A stretch of 64,000 nt of DNA from contig CAVOVB010000005.1 in the NCBI GenBank assembly GCA_963699755.1, positions 32,001 through 96,000 on the forward strand, given 5' to 3'. The notes beneath the pieces were generated by a model that worked only from the letters and a program-made list of their open reading frames with translations, ran no database searches and was not told the origin of the DNA. How positions within the stretch are numbered: position 1 is the stretch's first letter; each line of letters starts with the position of its first letter. Shown piece by piece: positions 45,920 through 52,368 of this stretch. This DNA is from an uncultured delta proteobacterium (GTDB lineage: Bacteria; Myxococcota_A; Polyangia; Polyangiales; Houyiibacteriaceae). A program made the position numbers and the translations under genes.

Positions 45920-47081
45920 CTAGCCGCACGCCCCGAAGGAACCCATTGTCGGGGCTACCTCTGAAGCGGAACCAGCAAGAAGCGGCCCAGTCCGAGGGGC
46001 GCGGCTTGCCTTGTCCGATCCGCGTCCTGCCCGAGCCGCGCACGAAAACCACGAGGTCAGCGCTGCATTTCCTGCGTCCCTCCGCGTCAGGTTTGCGTAC
46101 ACAGGGCGTCTCCTCCCAACATCGCCTCGCGGAGCTCGTTGCGGTGAATGCGTGCGGCGCCGAGTGCATCCTGGTACTCGCGCCAAAGCCGGTCATCGAG
46201 CAGTCGTTCAAGCGGCCGTTTCTCGTAGGTCTTCACTTGGTCTGGGCCCGGGACGAAATCGCCGTATCGCTCGCAGAGCCGCTCCTTGGACCATCGGGGC
46301 CCCAACGCCGATGCTTTGCACACCAGATTGGGCCTGGTCGCGTCCATAATCGCTAGCCCGTTCCCGCGCCGCGCCATGCGGACTCCGAAACGCTTCAGCT
46401 CCTCATGGAGAGCCTCCACGACCCGATGCGGTCAAGCGACTTGGCTTCGCCGATGTTCCTCCGTGCCCAACGGGCGAAACCCACATCAAGGAGCCGCTTA
46501 GCCTCGAGCACCGTGTTCCTCCGTGCCCAACGGGCGAAACTCTCGATGCCCCGGTGCGCCTGGAAGTCGCGGGGCTGGTGGCTCCGGGAACGACCTACCG
46601 TCCGGTCCACCCTGCGGAGGCCAAGCTCCTCTTCGAGCGCGGTCGCAAGGGCCTGAAACGCACGGATGGCCTGGTACGGGTGATGGATCTTCAGCGTGTC
46701 CAGATGGATCTTGTTCACCGCCACATGAAGATGCTCGTGCTCCTGCTCGCTATGACGCGCCACGGTGTATTGGTGCTCTCCGAGCCCTGCCGCCCCCACT
46801 GCCCGGGAAACGACATCCTCGAGCTCCGCCGGCGTCAGGCGCCGGTCCTCTGCGTGAAACGAGATGACCAGGTGATGGGTCTTGTTGCCCTTGGCCCTCA
46901 CATTGCCTTGTTGAAGCAGTTCGCCTACCTCGACCGCAAGCTCGGCGTCCTCCTGTCGATACAGGCCCTCGAGGTTCCCGGCCGTGTACCGGGCCTTGTG
47001 CTCGGTCAGGGCCTTCTTGAGCAAGCCCCTGCACCGGTAGATAGTGAGCCGCGCTCCACGCTTGTCGAGGGCCGATCTCAC
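45920..47081 (-). pseudogene. MOB_P/TraI-like relaxase, fragmented over three frames
   Basis: HHLVISFHAED, EHQY..ARHSEQEHEHLHVAVNKIH, LEEELGL; then EALHEELKRFG..RGNGL..KASAL. Confidence 0.85.
46454..46540. repeat. 27-bp direct repeat pair around a 33-bp unique insert
   Basis: TGTTCCTCCGTGCCCAACGGGCGAAAC at 46454-46480 and 46514-46540, identical. Confidence 0.95.
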
Positions 47082-47509
47082 TCCGCGCGCGCGAATAAGC
47101 CGAAGGCGTTGCGCGCGTCAACCAGGTGCGGCAGCGCGAACGTCGAAGACGTCGCGCCCAGCGCCCCCAGCCTTGTTAGACAAGACTCCACCTTGCCTGA
47201 AAAACATGAGGACACAAAGCGGCAACGAGTGTCCAACGCCGACCAATATGGGCACATCTCGTCACAATGCGGCGGCCGCGGGCGAAGACTGTCCAAACCT
47301 GTCCTACTCGAACAGCATGGAACGAAGTTCGCCGAGCTTCGCCGGCAATCGACCAAGTTAGACAGAGTGCGTCAAACTAGAACGACAGGCTGCGACAGCG
47401 CACGCCAGAACGTCTGACGTGTTGGTGCGAAGAAACCGACGCGCCCGATTGCACCAAGAAAAGTGTTCCGTCCGTGCAACTTTTCAGGGGGCAAAACCGA
47501 TAACAGGGA

Positions 47510-47734
47510 ATGGCAGGTACGAGTCACAGCACGCATGTCGCCACCTGGCTGACTTACACGCAGGCGGCCACCTACACCGGTTGGTCGATCCCGCATCTAC
47601 GAACCCTCGTCTCGGGAGGCCAAATTCCGGTCTGCGGCCGGCCGCGCTTGCGCAGATTCCGTCGGGATATGTTGGACCTCTTCCTGACGAATCCGGACAT
47701 GGCGATGCGGAAGCTCCTCTCAGAAGGGAACTGA
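47510..47734 (+). CDS. excisionase-like HTH protein
   Basis: WLTYTQAATYTGWSIPHLRTLVSGGQIP...RRFRRDMLD, directly upstream of integrase. Confidence 0.8.
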   Translation: MAGTSHSTHVATWLTYTQAATYTGWSIPHLRTLVSGGQIPVCGRPRLRRFRRDMLDLFLTNPDMAMRKLLSEGN

Positions 47735-48811
47735 ATGCATCGCCGTTAGAAGACTAGACAAGTCATGGCAATGCGACTTCACGATCGAAGGCCACGGACG
47801 CCGGCGCAAAGCTGGTTTGCAAACCAAGGCCGAAGCGCGGGAAGCCGAACGACGACAACGCGAAGAGCTCATCTCTGGGCAAAGCGCTTTCTCATGAAGG
47901 ACGCGTTCAGGATGTGCCTGTCCGCCACCACGATGAAGCCTGGCAGCCGAGACAACTGCACGCGCTTCTGGCGCGAGCTCGAGTCGCAGATCGGGCGCCT
48001 GTACATCGAGCAAGTCGACACCTCGGTGATCGACGAGCTCAAGGCAGGCTTGCCAACACACCTCGGACCGGAGTCGATCAACAACCGCCTCAAGATCGTG
48101 CGGGCGGTGCTCCGGTTCATGTGAAAACGAGGGCACTTGAAATCGGTGCCCTACGTGCCGATGGAGAGTGCACCGGAACCGGCCATCGACTGGTATGCGG
48201 AAGAGGAGCGAGACCGGCTGCTCCGAGGCATGTTCGACATGTTCCCCCAATGGTACGCGTTCTTCTACCTGACGACCCGGCTTGGTCTTCGCACGGGCGA
48301 AGTCTATGCGATCGCGCGAGATCGAATCCGGAACATTCCCCCGCAGCTCATCGTCTATCGGGCGGTGCAACGGGGCAACAAAGAACGGCCCGCCATGCTT
48401 GGGCCGCGCAAGAACAACAAGGTGCTGACCCTCGCCCTCACCGAGGACCTGGTCGACGCCATTCGTTGGCACATCCAGCAAGGGTACGCGGGCCCGGAGT
48501 TCCTGTTCAGCAAGGACGGGACCTTCCCCACGCGCATCTACTCCCACGCGAGGCCCTTGCGAATCGTGCAACGAGCCCTGGGCCTCCGGGAAATCGGCCA
48601 CCACCAGGTCGGCAGGCATTCGGTGGCCAGCCAAGCCGCGACCGGAGGTCACTCCATCAAGACGATTCAGGCGCAGCTCGGGCACAAGTCGGCCAAGAGC
48701 ACACATCAGTACGCCCACCTTGGGCAGCGGGCGCAGCTTCGAATCGTTAAGGCCCTGCGGCCTGCCTCACCGCCTCACGTCAACGTCAGGTCAACGAGCG
48801 AAAATCGGTAG
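47735..48811 (+). pseudogene. tyrosine recombinase/integrase with frameshift (~47878) and in-frame TGA (48122-48124)
   Basis: N-terminal WQCDF...TKAEAREAE; catalytic GLRTGE, K, HQVGRHS, LGHKS..ST..YAH. Confidence 0.9.
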
Positions 48812-48865
48812 CTGCCCCCGAATGCTGCAAGCACCGGGAATCACGCCCCAATCGCGGGCGCCCGA

Positions 48866-48902
48866 TTAAGAAAGGGGCGACCCGGCACGGATCGCCCCTT
48901 TT
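48866..48902 (-). terminator. intrinsic terminator (probably bidirectional)
   Basis: AAAGGGGCGA(C)CCG/CGG(A)TCGCCCCTTT stem; minus strand ends UUUCUUAA. Confidence 0.85.
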
Positions 48903-49930
48903 GGAAGCTCGCTAACCTCGCGACGAGAAACTCGTCGCTGGGCTTGGTGCATGCGTATACGTCGCACGCACCACGACCGACTTTGTCTGGACTTCGAGCG
49001 CGAGGCTCGATGGTGGGCCTATTAAGCCCTTCCTGCTTTGCGCGACACGTTTCGGCGCGATGCGTTCCCCGTCGGGAAGCCTGCTAACCCCCCGCATGAG
49101 CTGTTGGACTCACTGGAGGAGCTTTGACCGACACGTCCCGTGCGCTGACGTCGTACCTCTCGACACGAATGTTTCGAGATACCAAAGACTCGCATAGGTC
49201 GCCCTATGCTCTTCGTTTGGACAGAGTCCCAGCAACGGTTTGGGTTTAGCAAACCATCGTGATTGGACTCCGCGACGACTCTCGCCGTACCTGAACCCTT
49301 GGTTTTCGGCTATCCAAGGGCGCGTATGGGGAAGCGCTTCTGGCGGATCCGATGGCTCATGCCGCACTACGCCACCGCCGGAGCTTTCGCTCTCGGTGCG
49401 GGGCTGGTGCGCAGCATGTTCAGGCCGACGCGTGCAATCCAGAGTTTTGGTTTTCAAAGATGGGCACCCGAACCTCGTGAGATTACCGTCACCGGTTCCG
49501 AACCGGCTTGTAGACGGTGAGGCGACGGTGTCACCCCGTCGCGCTCGCTTTGGCGGGCCCTCGTTCCGCCGAAACGGACGAGCACCGAACCGCTGACGCG
49601 CCGTCACGACCATCGGTCAGCCCTAGTGCCAGGCACCTCCGACGGCTCGTCAAGAATCTTCGCGCCCACCCGATGGTGAAACCAAGCGGTGCCCCGATTC
49701 TAGCGCGCCTTCCACCGTTGCCCTTCGCGTCGCCAGCCATCGTCAAGCTCTCGCTCGACTCTAACCCACGCATCAGACCAACGGCTTTTGCAATACTCAC
49801 GACCCACGGACACGTTCGGCGTTCTCGACGCCTTCCGACTGCGCGACCTTTCGGCCTCGCCCCTCGCCCCGTGAGAGTGAGAAACAGCAACTTGCGTTGC
49901 TGTCGTCAGATGGGTTGATTCAAAGAACGT
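48866..49930 (-). ncRNA. candidate large structured non-coding RNA of about 1.05 kb (possibly two RNAs), family unrecognised
   Basis: No credible ORF; dense helices with G-U pairs and GNRA tetraloops on the minus strand; two boxA-like motifs; terminator. Confidence 0.7.
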
Positions 49931-50001
49931 CCGAGCTCGCTGTCGCGATCTTCCGATCCCTCTTGTCACCGATCCGCCGGTCCAGATCAACGAAATTCGC
50001 C

Positions 50002-50059
50002 TGTGGAAAAGATGTTTCTTTTTCCACAAGCAAAGCGCATTGCGCCCAAATCATCCACA
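50002..50059. promoter_or_regulatory. cluster of three DnaA-box-like 9-mers
   Basis: TGTGGAAAA 50002-50010, TTTTCCACA 50020-50028, TCATCCACA 50051-50059 versus TTWTNCACA. Confidence 0.55.
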
Positions 50060-50091
50060 GGAGGCCGCAGAATCAAAATAGCGTTTTGATT

Positions 50092-52368
50092 TCAGGGCGC
50101 GGAGGTGACGGGGACCGTTGCGGTGTTCATGGGGATCGCCGCTGGCGCGGTCGAGGGCATGCCCGCTTCGGAGCTTGCCGGAGCAAGGTCCGCAGTCGTC
50201 GCCGGCAACGGTCCCATGGGATCCATCGGGTCGTTGGAGTCAGGCAAGAGCGTCGGCGCTTCGAGAGGCGCGTCGAAATCGAATGGCTTCACTCGAGGAG
50301 TCAAGTTGCCGAAGCGGTCGACGCTCACCCATGCGCCGTCAGGCATCACGTACGCGCCGGCATCGCGATCGTAGCGCGGAAGGGCGACCTCAATCGGCTC
50401 TTTGACTTGGCCGCGAACTCGACCTGGAAGGACTTCGACATACAAGGGCTCATCGAGGACGAACTCGTAGCCGCCCTTGTCGAACTCCATGAGGTACGTT
50501 TCGTCTTCGAATTCGAATTCGCGTCGATAGTTCATCGGCTCCTGGCCCAAGCGCTGATGCGGGCGGTGCTCGAGGACGAACGACATCAAGCGAACAGCGA
50601 TGTGGTTGTGCATGCGGTGACAGCCGTGCGAGTGACGACGCATGATGCTCATGTAGTCGACCGAGCCGTGCGTTCGAATGCCCTCGTCCCCTCCGAGCTG
50701 GATCGTCCCGTCGGCGCCGCGATAGTACTTGCGGTGGTATGCGGCCACCAAGCCGTACGCGGACGCGTAGCTCGGGCCCGTCGTATGATAGTCGACCTCG
50801 AAATAATCTTCGCCCCGCTTGCGTCGCTTCGTGACCATCGTGCGCGGCGGCGTGCTTTCAGGCGGCACCCAAACCGGCGCGGCGGAGATGACGCTCCATG
50901 CGCGCTTGCCGACCGGCGAACCCTTGTACTTCAACATCACGACCCCATCGATGTAATCGCTGCGCCAACCGCCAACGGTGGTACCAAAACGCGCGAGCGG
51001 GATCTTCTGACCGTTGTAGTTGACCTGAATCGTGAGTCGCGGCCGGCGGTTGACCGGCTGGGAGCGTCCCTTGCCCTCCTCGTCGAAGGGGAATTCGTAC
51101 CAGACGTCACCCCGATCGATTGAAACGCTCAGGTCCATGGCATCGCTGTAGTACGGGGGCCGCTCGATGCCTTGGATCGCGACGATGTTTTCGGCAGGGA
51201 TTTCACCTAGCGACTGCAGCCAAGCATACGTCGACTCGGGCGTCTGGAGCCCGAACGCCTCGATGACGCGCTCGCGAAGCTCTGCTTCGAAGTTTGGAAT
51301 CTGCAGCTCACGGCCGTCCTCGGCCTCGTAGGTTCGCGGCTCACCGTTGCTCAGAAACGAGGTGCTGCCGTCTTCGATCACCTCGGCGGCATGCATCGCT
51401 CGTTCGGTCAACACACGGATCACGGCTTCCCGCTCCGTCTCCTGCGGGGTCTCTCGCAAGACAGCCAGGGTGTCTTTGCCGATGAAGCCCCAACCGTAGA
51501 CGCGATGCCGACGCTCGAACTCGGCGAGCGCCTCGTGGGTGCGCCAATCGAATAGACCGGGGGTGTGCTGGCCGCGACCTTCGAAAAAGCCTTCGCACTC
51601 GAGTCGAGCCTGGGCAGCGATGATCGCCTCAATCTGGGGAGCAAGCGTTCTGTACTCCTCGACCTTCTCCCATTCGTCCTGGTCCGCGGTTTGAGCGCGA
51701 GTGACCTGATCGAGGCTTTCGACCTGGGCACGCTCGACGAGCGCGGCCATCTTCGGCTTCAGCAGCTGGTAGCGAGCAAGGCGACGCGCGGGGCGGCGGC
51801 CCTTCTCATATGCCAAAAACCCCTGGAACTCCTGAAGCGGCACCAGGTCGAGCTGCTCCGCGCATTCGAGCGCGCGGACCTCGGCGAAGCGCTGCCTCAT
51901 CAAGGTCACGGTCGGCAAGATGCCGTAAAGCTCCAAGTACTCGTCCTTCTTGGCGCGATACCCGTGGCGGTCGTCTGGAAACTCGCCGCGCGCCAGGGCT
52001 AAGTAGGTCGCACGGTATTCGCTGGGCTTGGGCTCCTCGTCGGCGGAAGAAGCCTCCGTGAGAATGTAGGGTGTCCAGTCTTCGCCCAGGTTCAGCAGAA
52101 GCTGACCTTCTTCGTCCGCCTTGGCGGCATCGACCTCGCCCTCGGTCTTGCCGTCCTTCCAGAACGCCACAGGAGCCTCGAGCGCCGCAGGCTGAGGGTC
52201 CCCCCTGCGAGCCGAAGGCGACGCGGGTTTGGCATCGCTCCCCATGGGAGCTGTGACAGGATCCTGCTTCGGTGTGCAGCCGCAAAAGACTAGACAGCCG
52301 AGGACAGGCAATAACCCCAGGCGCAAATGTACCACGACTCGAACACCTTGGAGCGGAACGGGGCGCAA
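50092..52368 (-). CDS. L,D-transpeptidase-family lipoprotein with peptidoglycan-binding domain
   Basis: FCGC lipobox-like; GLFDWRTHEALAEFERRH...G..G..T; APVWVPP; IRTHGS...SHGCHRM. Confidence 0.85.
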   Translation of the reverse strand: MRPVPLQGVRVVVHLRLGLLPVLGCLVFCGCTPKQDPVTAPMGSDAKPASPSARRGDPQPAALEAPVAFWKDGKTEGEVDAAKADEEGQLLLNLGEDWTPYILTEASSADEEPKPSEYRATYLALARGEFPDDRHGYRAKKDEYLELYGILPTVTLMRQRFAEVRALECAEQLDLVPLQEFQGFLAYEKGRRPARRLARYQLLKPKMAALVERAQVESLDQVTRAQTADQDEWEKVEEYRTLAPQIEAIIAAQARLECEGFFEGRGQHTPGLFDWRTHEALAEFERRHRVYGWGFIGKDTLAVLRETPQETEREAVIRVLTERAMHAAEVIEDGSTSFLSNGEPRTYEAEDGRELQIPNFEAELRERVIEAFGLQTPESTYAWLQSLGEIPAENIVAIQGIERPPYYSDAMDLSVSIDRGDVWYEFPFDEEGKGRSQPVNRRPRLTIQVNYNGQKIPLARFGTTVGGWRSDYIDGVVMLKYKGSPVGKRAWSVISAAPVWVPPESTPPRTMVTKRRKRGEDYFEVDYHTTGPSYASAYGLVAAYHRKYYRGADGTIQLGGDEGIRTHGSVDYMSIMRRHSHGCHRMHNHIAVRLMSFVLEHRPHQRLGQEPMNYRREFEFEDETYLMEFDKGGYEFVLDEPLYVEVLPGRVRGQVKEPIEVALPRYDRDAGAYVMPDGAWVSVDRFGNLTPRVKPFDFDAPLEAPTLLPDSNDPMDPMGPLPATTADLAPASSEAGMPSTAPAAIPMNTATVPVTSAP

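What the first reader, a model, noticed from the sequence alone, without database searches (positions are those of the whole stretch)
48866..49930. Candidate undescribed giant structured RNA (~1.05 kb) with rRNA-operon-like signals
Seen: the 1.28 kb gap between the integrase and the L,D-transpeptidase has no convincing ORF. Read on the minus strand it folds almost continuously. GNRA-capped hairpins: ACAGCAAC-GCAA-GUUGCUGU (49884-49903), GGCC-GAAA-GGUC (49845-49856), GUCGAGC-GAGA-GCUUGAC (49742-49759), GAGC-GAAA-GCUC (49381-49392), GCAUAGG-GCGA-CCUAUGC (49192-49209). Long-range helices: UCUGGAUU (49436-49443) with AGUCCAGA (48986-48993) closing ~450 nt, CCUGAAC (49418-49424) with GUUCAGG (49290-49296), AACCCAU/GUGGGUU, GGGCACC/GGUGCCU. 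A loop GCUAAACCC could pseudoknot with GGGUUAGC. Stem irregularities are mostly G-U on the minus strand (A-C on plus), which points to RNA-level selection and gives the strand. Two boxA-like motifs (GUUCUUUGAA 49919-49928; AUCUUUGAAAAC 49450-49461) each precede a folded block, and an intrinsic terminator ends the locus. Known: boxA/Nus antitermination marks untranslated stable-RNA transcripts. I see no hallmark of rRNA, tmRNA, RNase P, SRP or group I/II introns. Inference: a large ornate ncRNA (size class of GOLLD/ROOL/OLE) or two tandem RNAs in Myxococcota.
Basis: partly seen in the sequence, partly recalled or inferred. Interest (0 to 1): 0.9.

Follow-up and report, generated by a model that had tools for sequence, protein, structure and literature searches.

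The report
Giant modular RNA of Polyangiales myxobacteria
This is a real, stand-alone gene for a very large folded RNA (about 1 kb here, up to about 2.7 kb in relatives), found across one order of myxobacteria, built from repeated structural modules and matching no catalogued RNA family; what it does is still a hypothesis.

Summary
Confirmed and extended. Window 49954-48866 (minus strand) is a single-copy non-coding RNA gene. It is found in 49 of 54 genomes of the genus and, by profile searches, across the order Polyangiales (52 of 151 genomes; 66 of 151 Polyangiaceae), with lengths of 0.8-2.3 kb in genomes and contigs up to 2.7 kb. It folds far better than shuffles (z -6), shows tree-aware compensatory change (165 events versus 23 expected) and is non-coding. 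It lies in sediment RNA-seq runs, and many environmental contigs contain only this RNA and start 8-11 nt after the predicted start. No Rfam family matches; my paper searches found no description. Only the middle boxA is widely conserved; one long RNA fits better than two. Most likely role (inferred, about 0.45): an abundant architectural or scaffold RNA, working like ROOL/GOLLD/OLE but not a member of them, with growth- or replication-linked expression.

The parts
50002..50059 (.). Three DnaA-box-like 9-mers (50002-50010, 50020-50028, 50051-50059) upstream of the promoter
   Evidence: Only cluster of 3 or more boxes (1 mismatch or fewer to the recalled consensus) within 300 bp in the 5.35 Mb genome; a similar pair lies upstream of this genome's dnaA; boxes within 200 nt upstream in 32 of 34 full-length homologues, 0 of 34 downstream controls
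49962..49990 (-). Predicted sigma70-type promoter: -35 TTGATC (49990-49985), 17-nt spacer, -10 GACAAG (49967-49962), A/T tracts upstream
   Evidence: Aligned across 24 homologues and the genus; not called by the consensus scan; inferred
48866..49954 (-). The RNA gene, about 1,050 nt plus terminator
49945..49954 (-). 5' strand of the closing helix (GGAAGAUCGC); order-wide (G/C)GAAG(G/U)UCGC start motif
   Evidence: Pairs with 48912-48903 in the consensus fold; motif
49919..49928 (-). First boxA-like motif; conserved in the genus, degenerate in most other families
49547..49713 (-). Module copy 1: GGAA-GGCGCGC (49713-49703) ... GCGCGUC-AGCGG (49601-49590) ... CCGCC-AAAGC (49556-49547)
   Evidence: Consensus of 27 large homologues; helix and profile matches; covariation in relatives
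49531..49680 (-). Kissing loop UUCACC (49680-49675) with GGUGA (49535-49531)
   Evidence: Four pairs hold in 38 of 38 genus sequences, one with a compensatory change; partners change together across families
49425..49469 (-). Most conserved segment: GGGUGCCC, second boxA (49461-49450), GGAUUGCA..CGUCGG; opens domain 2
   Evidence: resembles the boxA motifs before this genome's 16S, tRNA and 23S genes
48986..49443 (-). Domain 2, closed by UCUGGAUU/AGUCCAGA; contains the CUAAACC loop (49250-49242) and a degenerate second module copy (about 49283-49121)
   Evidence: the second copy is seen here by motif only and was not detected by the profile in this genus
48946..48972 (-). 3' hairpin with ACGUA loop (palindromic ACGU; possible self-kissing loop)
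   Evidence: Covarying stem; loop shared with several other genera; role inferred
48903..48912 (-). 3' strand of the closing helix (GCGAGCUUCC)
48866..48900 (-). Terminator-like hairpin with U-rich tail; integration site of mobile elements in relatives
   Evidence: short duplicates of this end 2-17 kb away in 4 relatives
50092..52368 (-). Upstream L,D-transpeptidase-like gene (neighbour, not a partner)
   Evidence: Weak YkuD match; adjacent in 42 of 43 genus loci but in only 3 of 29 orthologue loci of other genera
47765..48811 (+). Integrase in two ORFs of an integrated element (relaxase pieces at 46087-47081) abutting the terminator
   Evidence: integrase-like sequence next to the RNA in 18 of 43 genus loci

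Best explanation
A stand-alone chromosomal gene for a stable, giant structured RNA specific to Polyangiales. Shown: conserved gene, non-coding, RNA-level covariation on the minus strand, presence in RNA-seq, repeated internal module. Inferred, stepwise: (1) it is transcribed from a stable-RNA-type promoter whose upstream DnaA boxes tie output to growth or the replication cycle; (2) the mid-transcript boxA recruits Nus factors so that 1-2.7 kb of untranslated RNA escapes Rho and folds, as in rRNA operons; (3) the product is one RNA, closed end to end by a short helix and built from two or three paralogous modules (GAA-helix...helix-AGA-GG...CC-GAAG) separated by freely variable insertions; (4) the modules pack through kissing loops and A-rich junction contacts into a compact particle, possibly a multimer; (5) it acts as an architectural scaffold that holds or sequesters protein partners, as proposed for OLE, ROOL and GOLLD. 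Steps 1, 2, 4 and 5 are untested. The confidence given is for the scaffold mechanism; that it is a functional large RNA class I put at about 0.95.
For: Single copy, in 49 of 54 genus genomes at 67-90% identity; 52 of 151 order genomes and 66 of 151 Polyangiaceae genomes. 165 same-branch double changes keep a pair in the single-sequence fold versus 23 +/- 5 (maximum 36 in 200 re-pairings). 7 and 2 pairs at E <= 0.05 in alignments of 102 and 64 divergent module copies, including the equivalent helix in both domains. Profile of the domain-1 module hits domain 2 15 times in 30 sequences, all on the sense strand, best E 4e-7, versus 1 in reversed sequences; a third copy in large members. Kissing-loop partners change together. 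z -4.3 to -10.7 for 8 divergent homologues. Held by 20 RNA runs from 16 studies; contigs of 4 of 4 runs laid cover it, with exact pieces of 291-444 nt. 58 of 60 family contigs from the metagenome collection are short whole contigs with little or nothing beyond the RNA, 28 start 8-11 nt after the predicted start, 16 end in the closing strand or terminator, 9 have both ends (1.72-2.40 kb). No conserved neighbour gene. nusB present. Conserved core with unconstrained linkers, kissing loops and palindromic loops is what the ROOL/GOLLD/OLE structures show (PMC12286853, passages).
Against: No direct evidence for any function, partner or multimer. The all-pairs covariation test on the 43 genus sequences alone gave 0 pairs at E <= 0.05. 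The second module copy is not detected by profile in this genus, and two short homologues (795 and 1,108 nt) lack a detectable core. RNA-seq data are unstranded contigs, and the nucleic-acid type of the metagenome-collection contigs was not given. DnaA-box and boxA identities rest on recalled consensus; 11 of the 34 homologues counted were found with a model that contains the box. Patchy detection (0 of 23 in one family) argues against a universal essential role, or reflects low sensitivity.
Confidence: 0.45

Rival explanations
1. A multivalent sponge: each repeated module binds one copy of a specific protein (regulator, RNA polymerase, ribosomal factor) and the RNA titrates it, as CsrB or 6S do.
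For: Two or three paralogous modules with conserved unpaired purines; module number varies between lineages; a 6S RNA was not found in this genome (0 of 1; the same search found 5 of 14 controls).
Against: GGA is not enriched (observed/expected 0.96 over 34 homologues); conserved long-range pairs and kissing loops exceed what CsrB-type sponges need (established knowledge); no 6S-like long hairpin in the fold.
Confidence: 0.2
2. A ribozyme or multi-aptamer RNA: the repeated junction is a catalytic or ligand-binding pocket.
For: The conserved junction (AGA-GG / CC-GAAG) recalls glycine-aptamer and kink-turn strands (recalled; a lead only); very high conservation of unpaired purines.
Against: No Rfam ribozyme or riboswitch match at E <= 10, E <= 1 or E <= 2; own promoter and terminator and unrelated downstream genes exclude a cis riboswitch.
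Confidence: 0.15
3. A pre-rRNA-like precursor cut at the boxA stem and the closing helix into two separate stable RNAs.
For: boxA2 sits in a stem closing domain 2, as boxA does around this genome's unlinked 16S gene; RNase III is present; 3 of 58 contigs begin or end within about 30 nt of boxA2 and many start or stop inside the closing helix.
Against: 9 of 58 contigs run from the 5' end to the 3' end through boxA2; the stem is interrupted by a long A-rich bulge and boxA2 is degenerate in several homologues. Assemblies cannot separate precursor from product.
Confidence: 0.12
4. A domesticated or selfish remnant of an intron or mobile element.
For: Integrase-like sequence beside the RNA in 18 of 43 genus loci; two copies in G036 and G217.
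Against: The integrases lie outside the terminator and vary; a related one sits at a tRNA-Glu gene. No group I or II match, no ORF, no family member among phage, plasmid or viral-contig hits.
Confidence: 0.04
5. The locus acts as DNA (replication origin or DnaA titration site) and the RNA is incidental.
For: Only DnaA-box cluster of its kind in the genome.
Against: dnaA lies on another contig here and 0.12-4.8 Mb away in three relatives; parS-like repeats lie near dnaA; G-U-tolerant covariation over 1 kb is selection on RNA.
Confidence: 0.03

Closest known systems
GOLLD RNA
   Same: Large (many over 800 nt), unknown function, conserved and variable halves, kissing loops (PMC12286853, passages)
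   Different: GOLLD lies in phages and prophages near tRNA islands (same passages); this RNA is chromosomal, single copy, without tRNAs nearby, up to about 2.7 kb, and has no Rfam match
ROOL RNA
   Same: Ornate, pseudoknotted, no known partner, can be very abundant, variable linker
   Different: About 660 nt and prophage-borne; no match; internal tandem modules, DnaA boxes and boxA were not in the passages I read
OLE RNA
   Same: Chromosomal ornate RNA proposed to sequester protein
   Different: OLE has a partner gene beside it (recalled); no conserved neighbour here; no match
raiA motif RNA
   Same: Abundant chromosomal structured RNA of unknown biochemical role (abstract starts)
   Different: Much shorter (recalled), other phyla, no match
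rRNA operon leader and spacer
   Same: Promoter with A/T tracts, boxA within a stem, terminator
   Different: No rRNA or tRNA inside or nearby; the genome's 16S and 23S genes have their own promoters without DnaA boxes

Membership tests
GOLLD / ROOL / OLE / raiA and all other Rfam 15 families | Match to the family covariance model | tested here: not met
   0 at gathering score in the window; best E 0.35 in the region; 0 at E <= 1 in 8 loci; 4 weak unrelated hits in 16 divergent loci
GOLLD / ROOL | Phage or prophage location near tRNA islands | tested here: not met
   No tRNA in 40 fetched loci; no member in phages, plasmids or viral contigs searched
GOLLD / ROOL / OLE | Homo-multimer formation | not testable with these tools
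   Needs mass photometry or cryo-EM
OLE | Adjacent conserved partner gene | tested here: not met
   Neighbours differ across 27 divergent loci and 29 orthologue loci
RNase P RNA | P4 core and model match; genome's RNase P role | tested here: not met
   No match; a full RNase P RNA lies on C3; a P4-like pairing is contradicted by local covariation in the alignment
tmRNA | tRNA-like domain and tag frame | tested here: not met
   ARAGORN none; tmRNA lies on C8
rRNA operon | Contains 16S, 23S, 5S or tRNA | tested here: not met
rRNA operon | boxA used by NusB/NusE | tested here: inconclusive
   Motif resembles the genome's own boxA sites and nusB is present; binding not tested
Group I intron | P4/P6/P7 core, insertion in a host gene | tested here: not met
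   No Rfam match; the P-like UGCUGG lies in a local covarying helix; free-standing gene
Group II intron | Domain V, 5' GUGYG, reverse transcriptase frame | tested here: not met
   No Rfam match; starts GGAAG; no coding signal
CsrB/RsmZ sponge | Many GGA hairpin loops | tested here: not met
   GGA observed/expected 0.96
Riboswitch (tandem aptamer) | Cis position before related genes, expression platform | tested here: not met
   Own terminator; unrelated downstream genes
Protein-coding gene | Conserved frame, codon bias | tested here: not met
   14 of 507 indels in frame; G+C frame spread 0.08 versus 0.33 in flanks
oriC | DnaA boxes beside dnaA/parS, skew switch | tested here: inconclusive
   Boxes present but far from dnaA; skew too noisy

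The most novel reading that the evidence does not exclude
A new kind of bacterial RNA machine: a transcript up to 16S-23S size, assembled from tandemly duplicated RNA domains that act as fused subunits of a particle, made under DnaA control and so linked to the replication cycle of Polyangiales; it would be the largest non-ribosomal, non-intron structured RNA class I know of in bacteria (recalled).
Probability: 0.35. Interest if true: 0.96.

Novelty: categorically new. Interest (0 to 1): 0.9.

Why it matters
Large ornate bacterial RNAs are few and their functions are an open question. This class is two to three times the size of GOLLD, chromosomal, spread over an order that includes closed 12-16 Mb genomes (handles G251, G663, G359, G381, G676), and shows internal domain duplication with natural one-, two- and three-module variants, which gives built-in controls for structure and function work. 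Its DnaA-boxed promoter gives a first testable link to physiology. It may also be a sizeable unannotated part of soil and sediment metatranscriptomes, and a genus-level activity marker.

Tried and rejected
All-pairs covariation test on the 43 genus sequences: 0 pairs at E <= 0.05, 1 at E <= 1; underpowered, repeated on divergent modules. Flanks in the laid RNA runs are nearly uncovered (depth 2 or less outside 48706-50112), but these runs were chosen for holding the RNA and contig depth cannot rank genes, so this is not used as support. Contigs of two studies stop at 49942 followed by adapter letters: at most a weak hint of the 5' end. Pattern scan of all GTDB genomes: 23 matches, 3 with Polyangiales/Myxococcales titles, the other 20 without the flanking features and mostly inside long frames. 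G176 match lies in a coding region. Class and phylum searches: strong hits only within the order; outside, partial weak hits, and the module pattern matched at about the level of its reversed control. Viral contigs: 0 matches to the core pattern, 117 to a loose pattern, none confirmed by profiles. Complementarity to rRNA: nothing beyond 10-11 nt chance matches. A 21-nt match near the 16S gene and a 17-nt match near dnaA fall in coding regions. Group I P/Q/R/S and RNase P P4 look-alikes rejected by covariation. No duplicate of the terminator found in this genome. L,D-transpeptidase linkage is lineage-specific. Earlier scan findings: none returned.

Full report
Observation. The gap between the L,D-transpeptidase-like gene (52368-50092) and the integrase (48137-48811) holds no credible protein gene: the four short ORFs tested have no Pfam match, and among 43 genus homologues only 14 of 507 pairwise indels are multiples of three. 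The minus strand folds at -492 kcal/mol against -435 +/- 9 for 30 shuffles; the plus strand equals the shuffle mean. Two of the four long helices named are conserved, two are not, and the proposed pseudoknot is compatible but nearly invariant. Rfam gives nothing, and the genome has its own RNase P RNA and tmRNA elsewhere.

Distribution. The element is single copy and found by BLAST in 49 of 54 genomes of the genus at 67-90% identity and in 0 of 33 genomes of other genera of the family. Of the 5 genus genomes without a match, 3 have the neighbouring gene partial or at a contig end and 2 lack it. Behind the same gene, 3 of 29 loci from other genera held a diverged version. A motif from these matched 52 of 401 order genomes, adding two other families. 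Sequence-only models then gave 46 of 151 order genomes; of 20 hits fetched from outside the genus, 19 had the same promoter and 5' motif about 0.8-1.3 kb upstream. The 5' model found 52 of 151 order genomes and 66 of 151 Polyangiaceae genomes; only 21 of several thousand candidates per genome were scored, so these are lower bounds. None of 40 fetched loci holds rRNA or tRNA. Strong hits were confined to the order in class and phylum draws. The order name comes from record titles. Lengths run from 795 to 2,318 nt in 34 full-length genome copies, with no codon-like periodicity (0.08 versus 0.33 in flanks) and folding z of -4.3 to -10.7 in the 8 tested.

Anatomy. Upstream lie three DnaA-box-like 9-mers, the only cluster of three within 300 bp in the genome; a similar pair precedes this genome's dnaA, and boxes occur within 200 nt upstream in 32 of 34 homologues against 0 of 34 downstream (11 of the 34 were found with a model that includes the box). 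The consensus box is recalled. A -35/-10 pair with A/T tracts aligns across 24 homologues and puts the start near G49954; the simple scan did not call it. The first ten bases pair with 48912-48903 just before a terminator-like hairpin. The best-conserved segment is the middle boxA with GGRUUGCA..YGUC, similar to boxA motifs before this genome's unlinked 16S and tRNA-23S units. The first boxA is conserved in the genus but degenerate in most other families.

Structure. The consensus fold of 38 genus sequences has 267 pairs, 119 with a double change, but this is partly circular, and an all-pairs test on the genus alone found 0 pairs at E <= 0.05. Using the single-sequence fold as the hypothesis, same-branch double changes that keep pairing number 165 against 23 +/- 5 for re-paired columns. 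On divergent alignments my R-scape-like test gave 7 pairs (102 sequences) and 2 pairs (64 sequences) at E <= 0.05; one of the 7 is only 61% Watson-Crick or G-U. The kissing loop UUCACC/GGUGA holds in the genus and changes in step across families: of 27 large homologues, read by eye, 18 have UCACG/CGUG(A/G), 2 UCAUG/CAUGA, 2 GCAUG/CGUGC, 1 CGCG/CGCG, 3 partial and 1 misaligned.

Repeated module. The consensus of 27 large homologues shows GAA-GGYRY...GAC..RYRUC-AGA-GG...CC-GAAGC in both domains. A profile of the domain-1 copy hits the domain-2 halves 15 times in 30 sequences, all sense strand, versus once in reversed sequences; the reciprocal search gives 19 versus 0. A third, upstream copy appears in large members. 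The same helix positions covary in both copies. In the window's genus the first copy is detected weakly (E 0.003-0.06) and the second only by motif. I infer that the RNA grew by tandem duplication of a domain.

Expression. 20 RNA runs from 16 studies, mostly sediment, hold the stretch. Contigs of the 4 runs laid cover pieces between 48894 and 49942, some exact over 291-444 nt; they are unstranded and cannot give a level. A module pattern on the metagenome collection stopped at 120 matches; of the 80 with flanks, 60 are family members and 58 of these are whole contigs of 1.06-2.70 kb. 28 of 58 begin 8-11 nt after the predicted start, 2 extend upstream of it, 16 end in the closing strand or terminator by a strict test and 9 have both ends. 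The tool does not say whether these are RNA assemblies; the shared ends make that my inference. They support the predicted boundaries and one continuous transcript, but cannot exclude later cleavage; 3 of 58 begin or end near boxA2.

Context. Neighbouring genes differ across 27 divergent loci, so there is no partner gene and no cis target. Integrase-like sequence abuts the terminator in 18 of 43 genus loci, a related integrase sits at tRNA-Glu in this genome, and short duplicates of the 3' end occur downstream in 4 relatives: the 3' end behaves as an integration site, as tRNA and tmRNA genes do (established knowledge). No member was found in phages, plasmids or viral contigs.

Mechanism. Most likely an abundant architectural RNA: stable-RNA promoter under DnaA influence, boxA-assisted transcription and folding, modules docking by kissing loops and A-rich junctions into a particle or multimer that holds protein partners (0.45). 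Rivals: per-module sponge (0.2), ribozyme or multi-aptamer (0.15), precursor of two RNAs (0.12), mobile remnant (0.04), DNA site (0.03). Gene, fold, module and presence in RNA-seq are shown; regulation, antitermination, assembly and partners are inferred.

Comparison and novelty. It works most plausibly like ROOL, GOLLD or OLE but fails membership by model, location and size (PMC12286853, passages). Nine paper searches (listings and abstract starts only) showed no description. Term look-ups found no Myxococcota, Polyangiales or Sorangium in the main text of PMC11109978, PMC8632094 or preprint 10.64898/2026.10.21.760802; I did not read their supplements, and the preprint's cluster database could hold this region. 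Subscription journals are not in the library. I rate it categorically new as a class and architecture, with function unproven. Interest 0.9.

Noticed in passing
G000:C1:812749 and C1:654087 (loci L059, L060): 16S and 23S rRNA genes are unlinked by about 157 kb, each with its own promoter and boxA; the 23S unit starts with tRNA-Ile and tRNA-Ala; RNase III is still present.
   Followed up: partly
G000:C1:805600-805970: A second copy of the 16S 3' tip and trailer about 5 kb downstream of the gene, suggesting an element integrated at the 16S 3' end.
   Followed up: no
window 46087-48811: Integrated element with relaxase pieces and an integrase in two ORFs; its far-end duplicate was not found; related integrases at C3:463970 (tRNA-Glu), C3:17979 and C3:4760.
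   Followed up: partly
L075-L103, directly after the L,D-transpeptidase gene: In most other genera a small conserved ORF ending in a W-P-R-R-x-x-R-W-R-like motif follows the gene.
   Followed up: no
L054 (alignment A1 columns 819-834 and 1156-1194): One genus copy carries a 16-nt duplication and lacks the 3' strand that closes domain 2; assembly error or decayed copy.
   Followed up: no
L221 (G663) and L224 (G676): Short, diverged homologues (795 and 1,108 nt) keep the promoter, ends and terminator but little detectable core; L221 has DnaA-box-like motifs inside the RNA.
   Followed up: partly
G036 and G217: Two copies per genome.
   Followed up: no
G000:C1:999348-999410: Two parS-like palindromes 46 bp apart, about 13 kb from dnaA.
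   Followed up: no
G000 whole genome: No 6S RNA match; duplicated rnc and tRNA clusters on C1 and C7 fit the 9% contamination figure.
   Followed up: no
window 49949-49958: The sequence around the start reads like the beginning of the Illumina adapter, which could bias trimming of reads at the 5' end in this genus.
   Followed up: no
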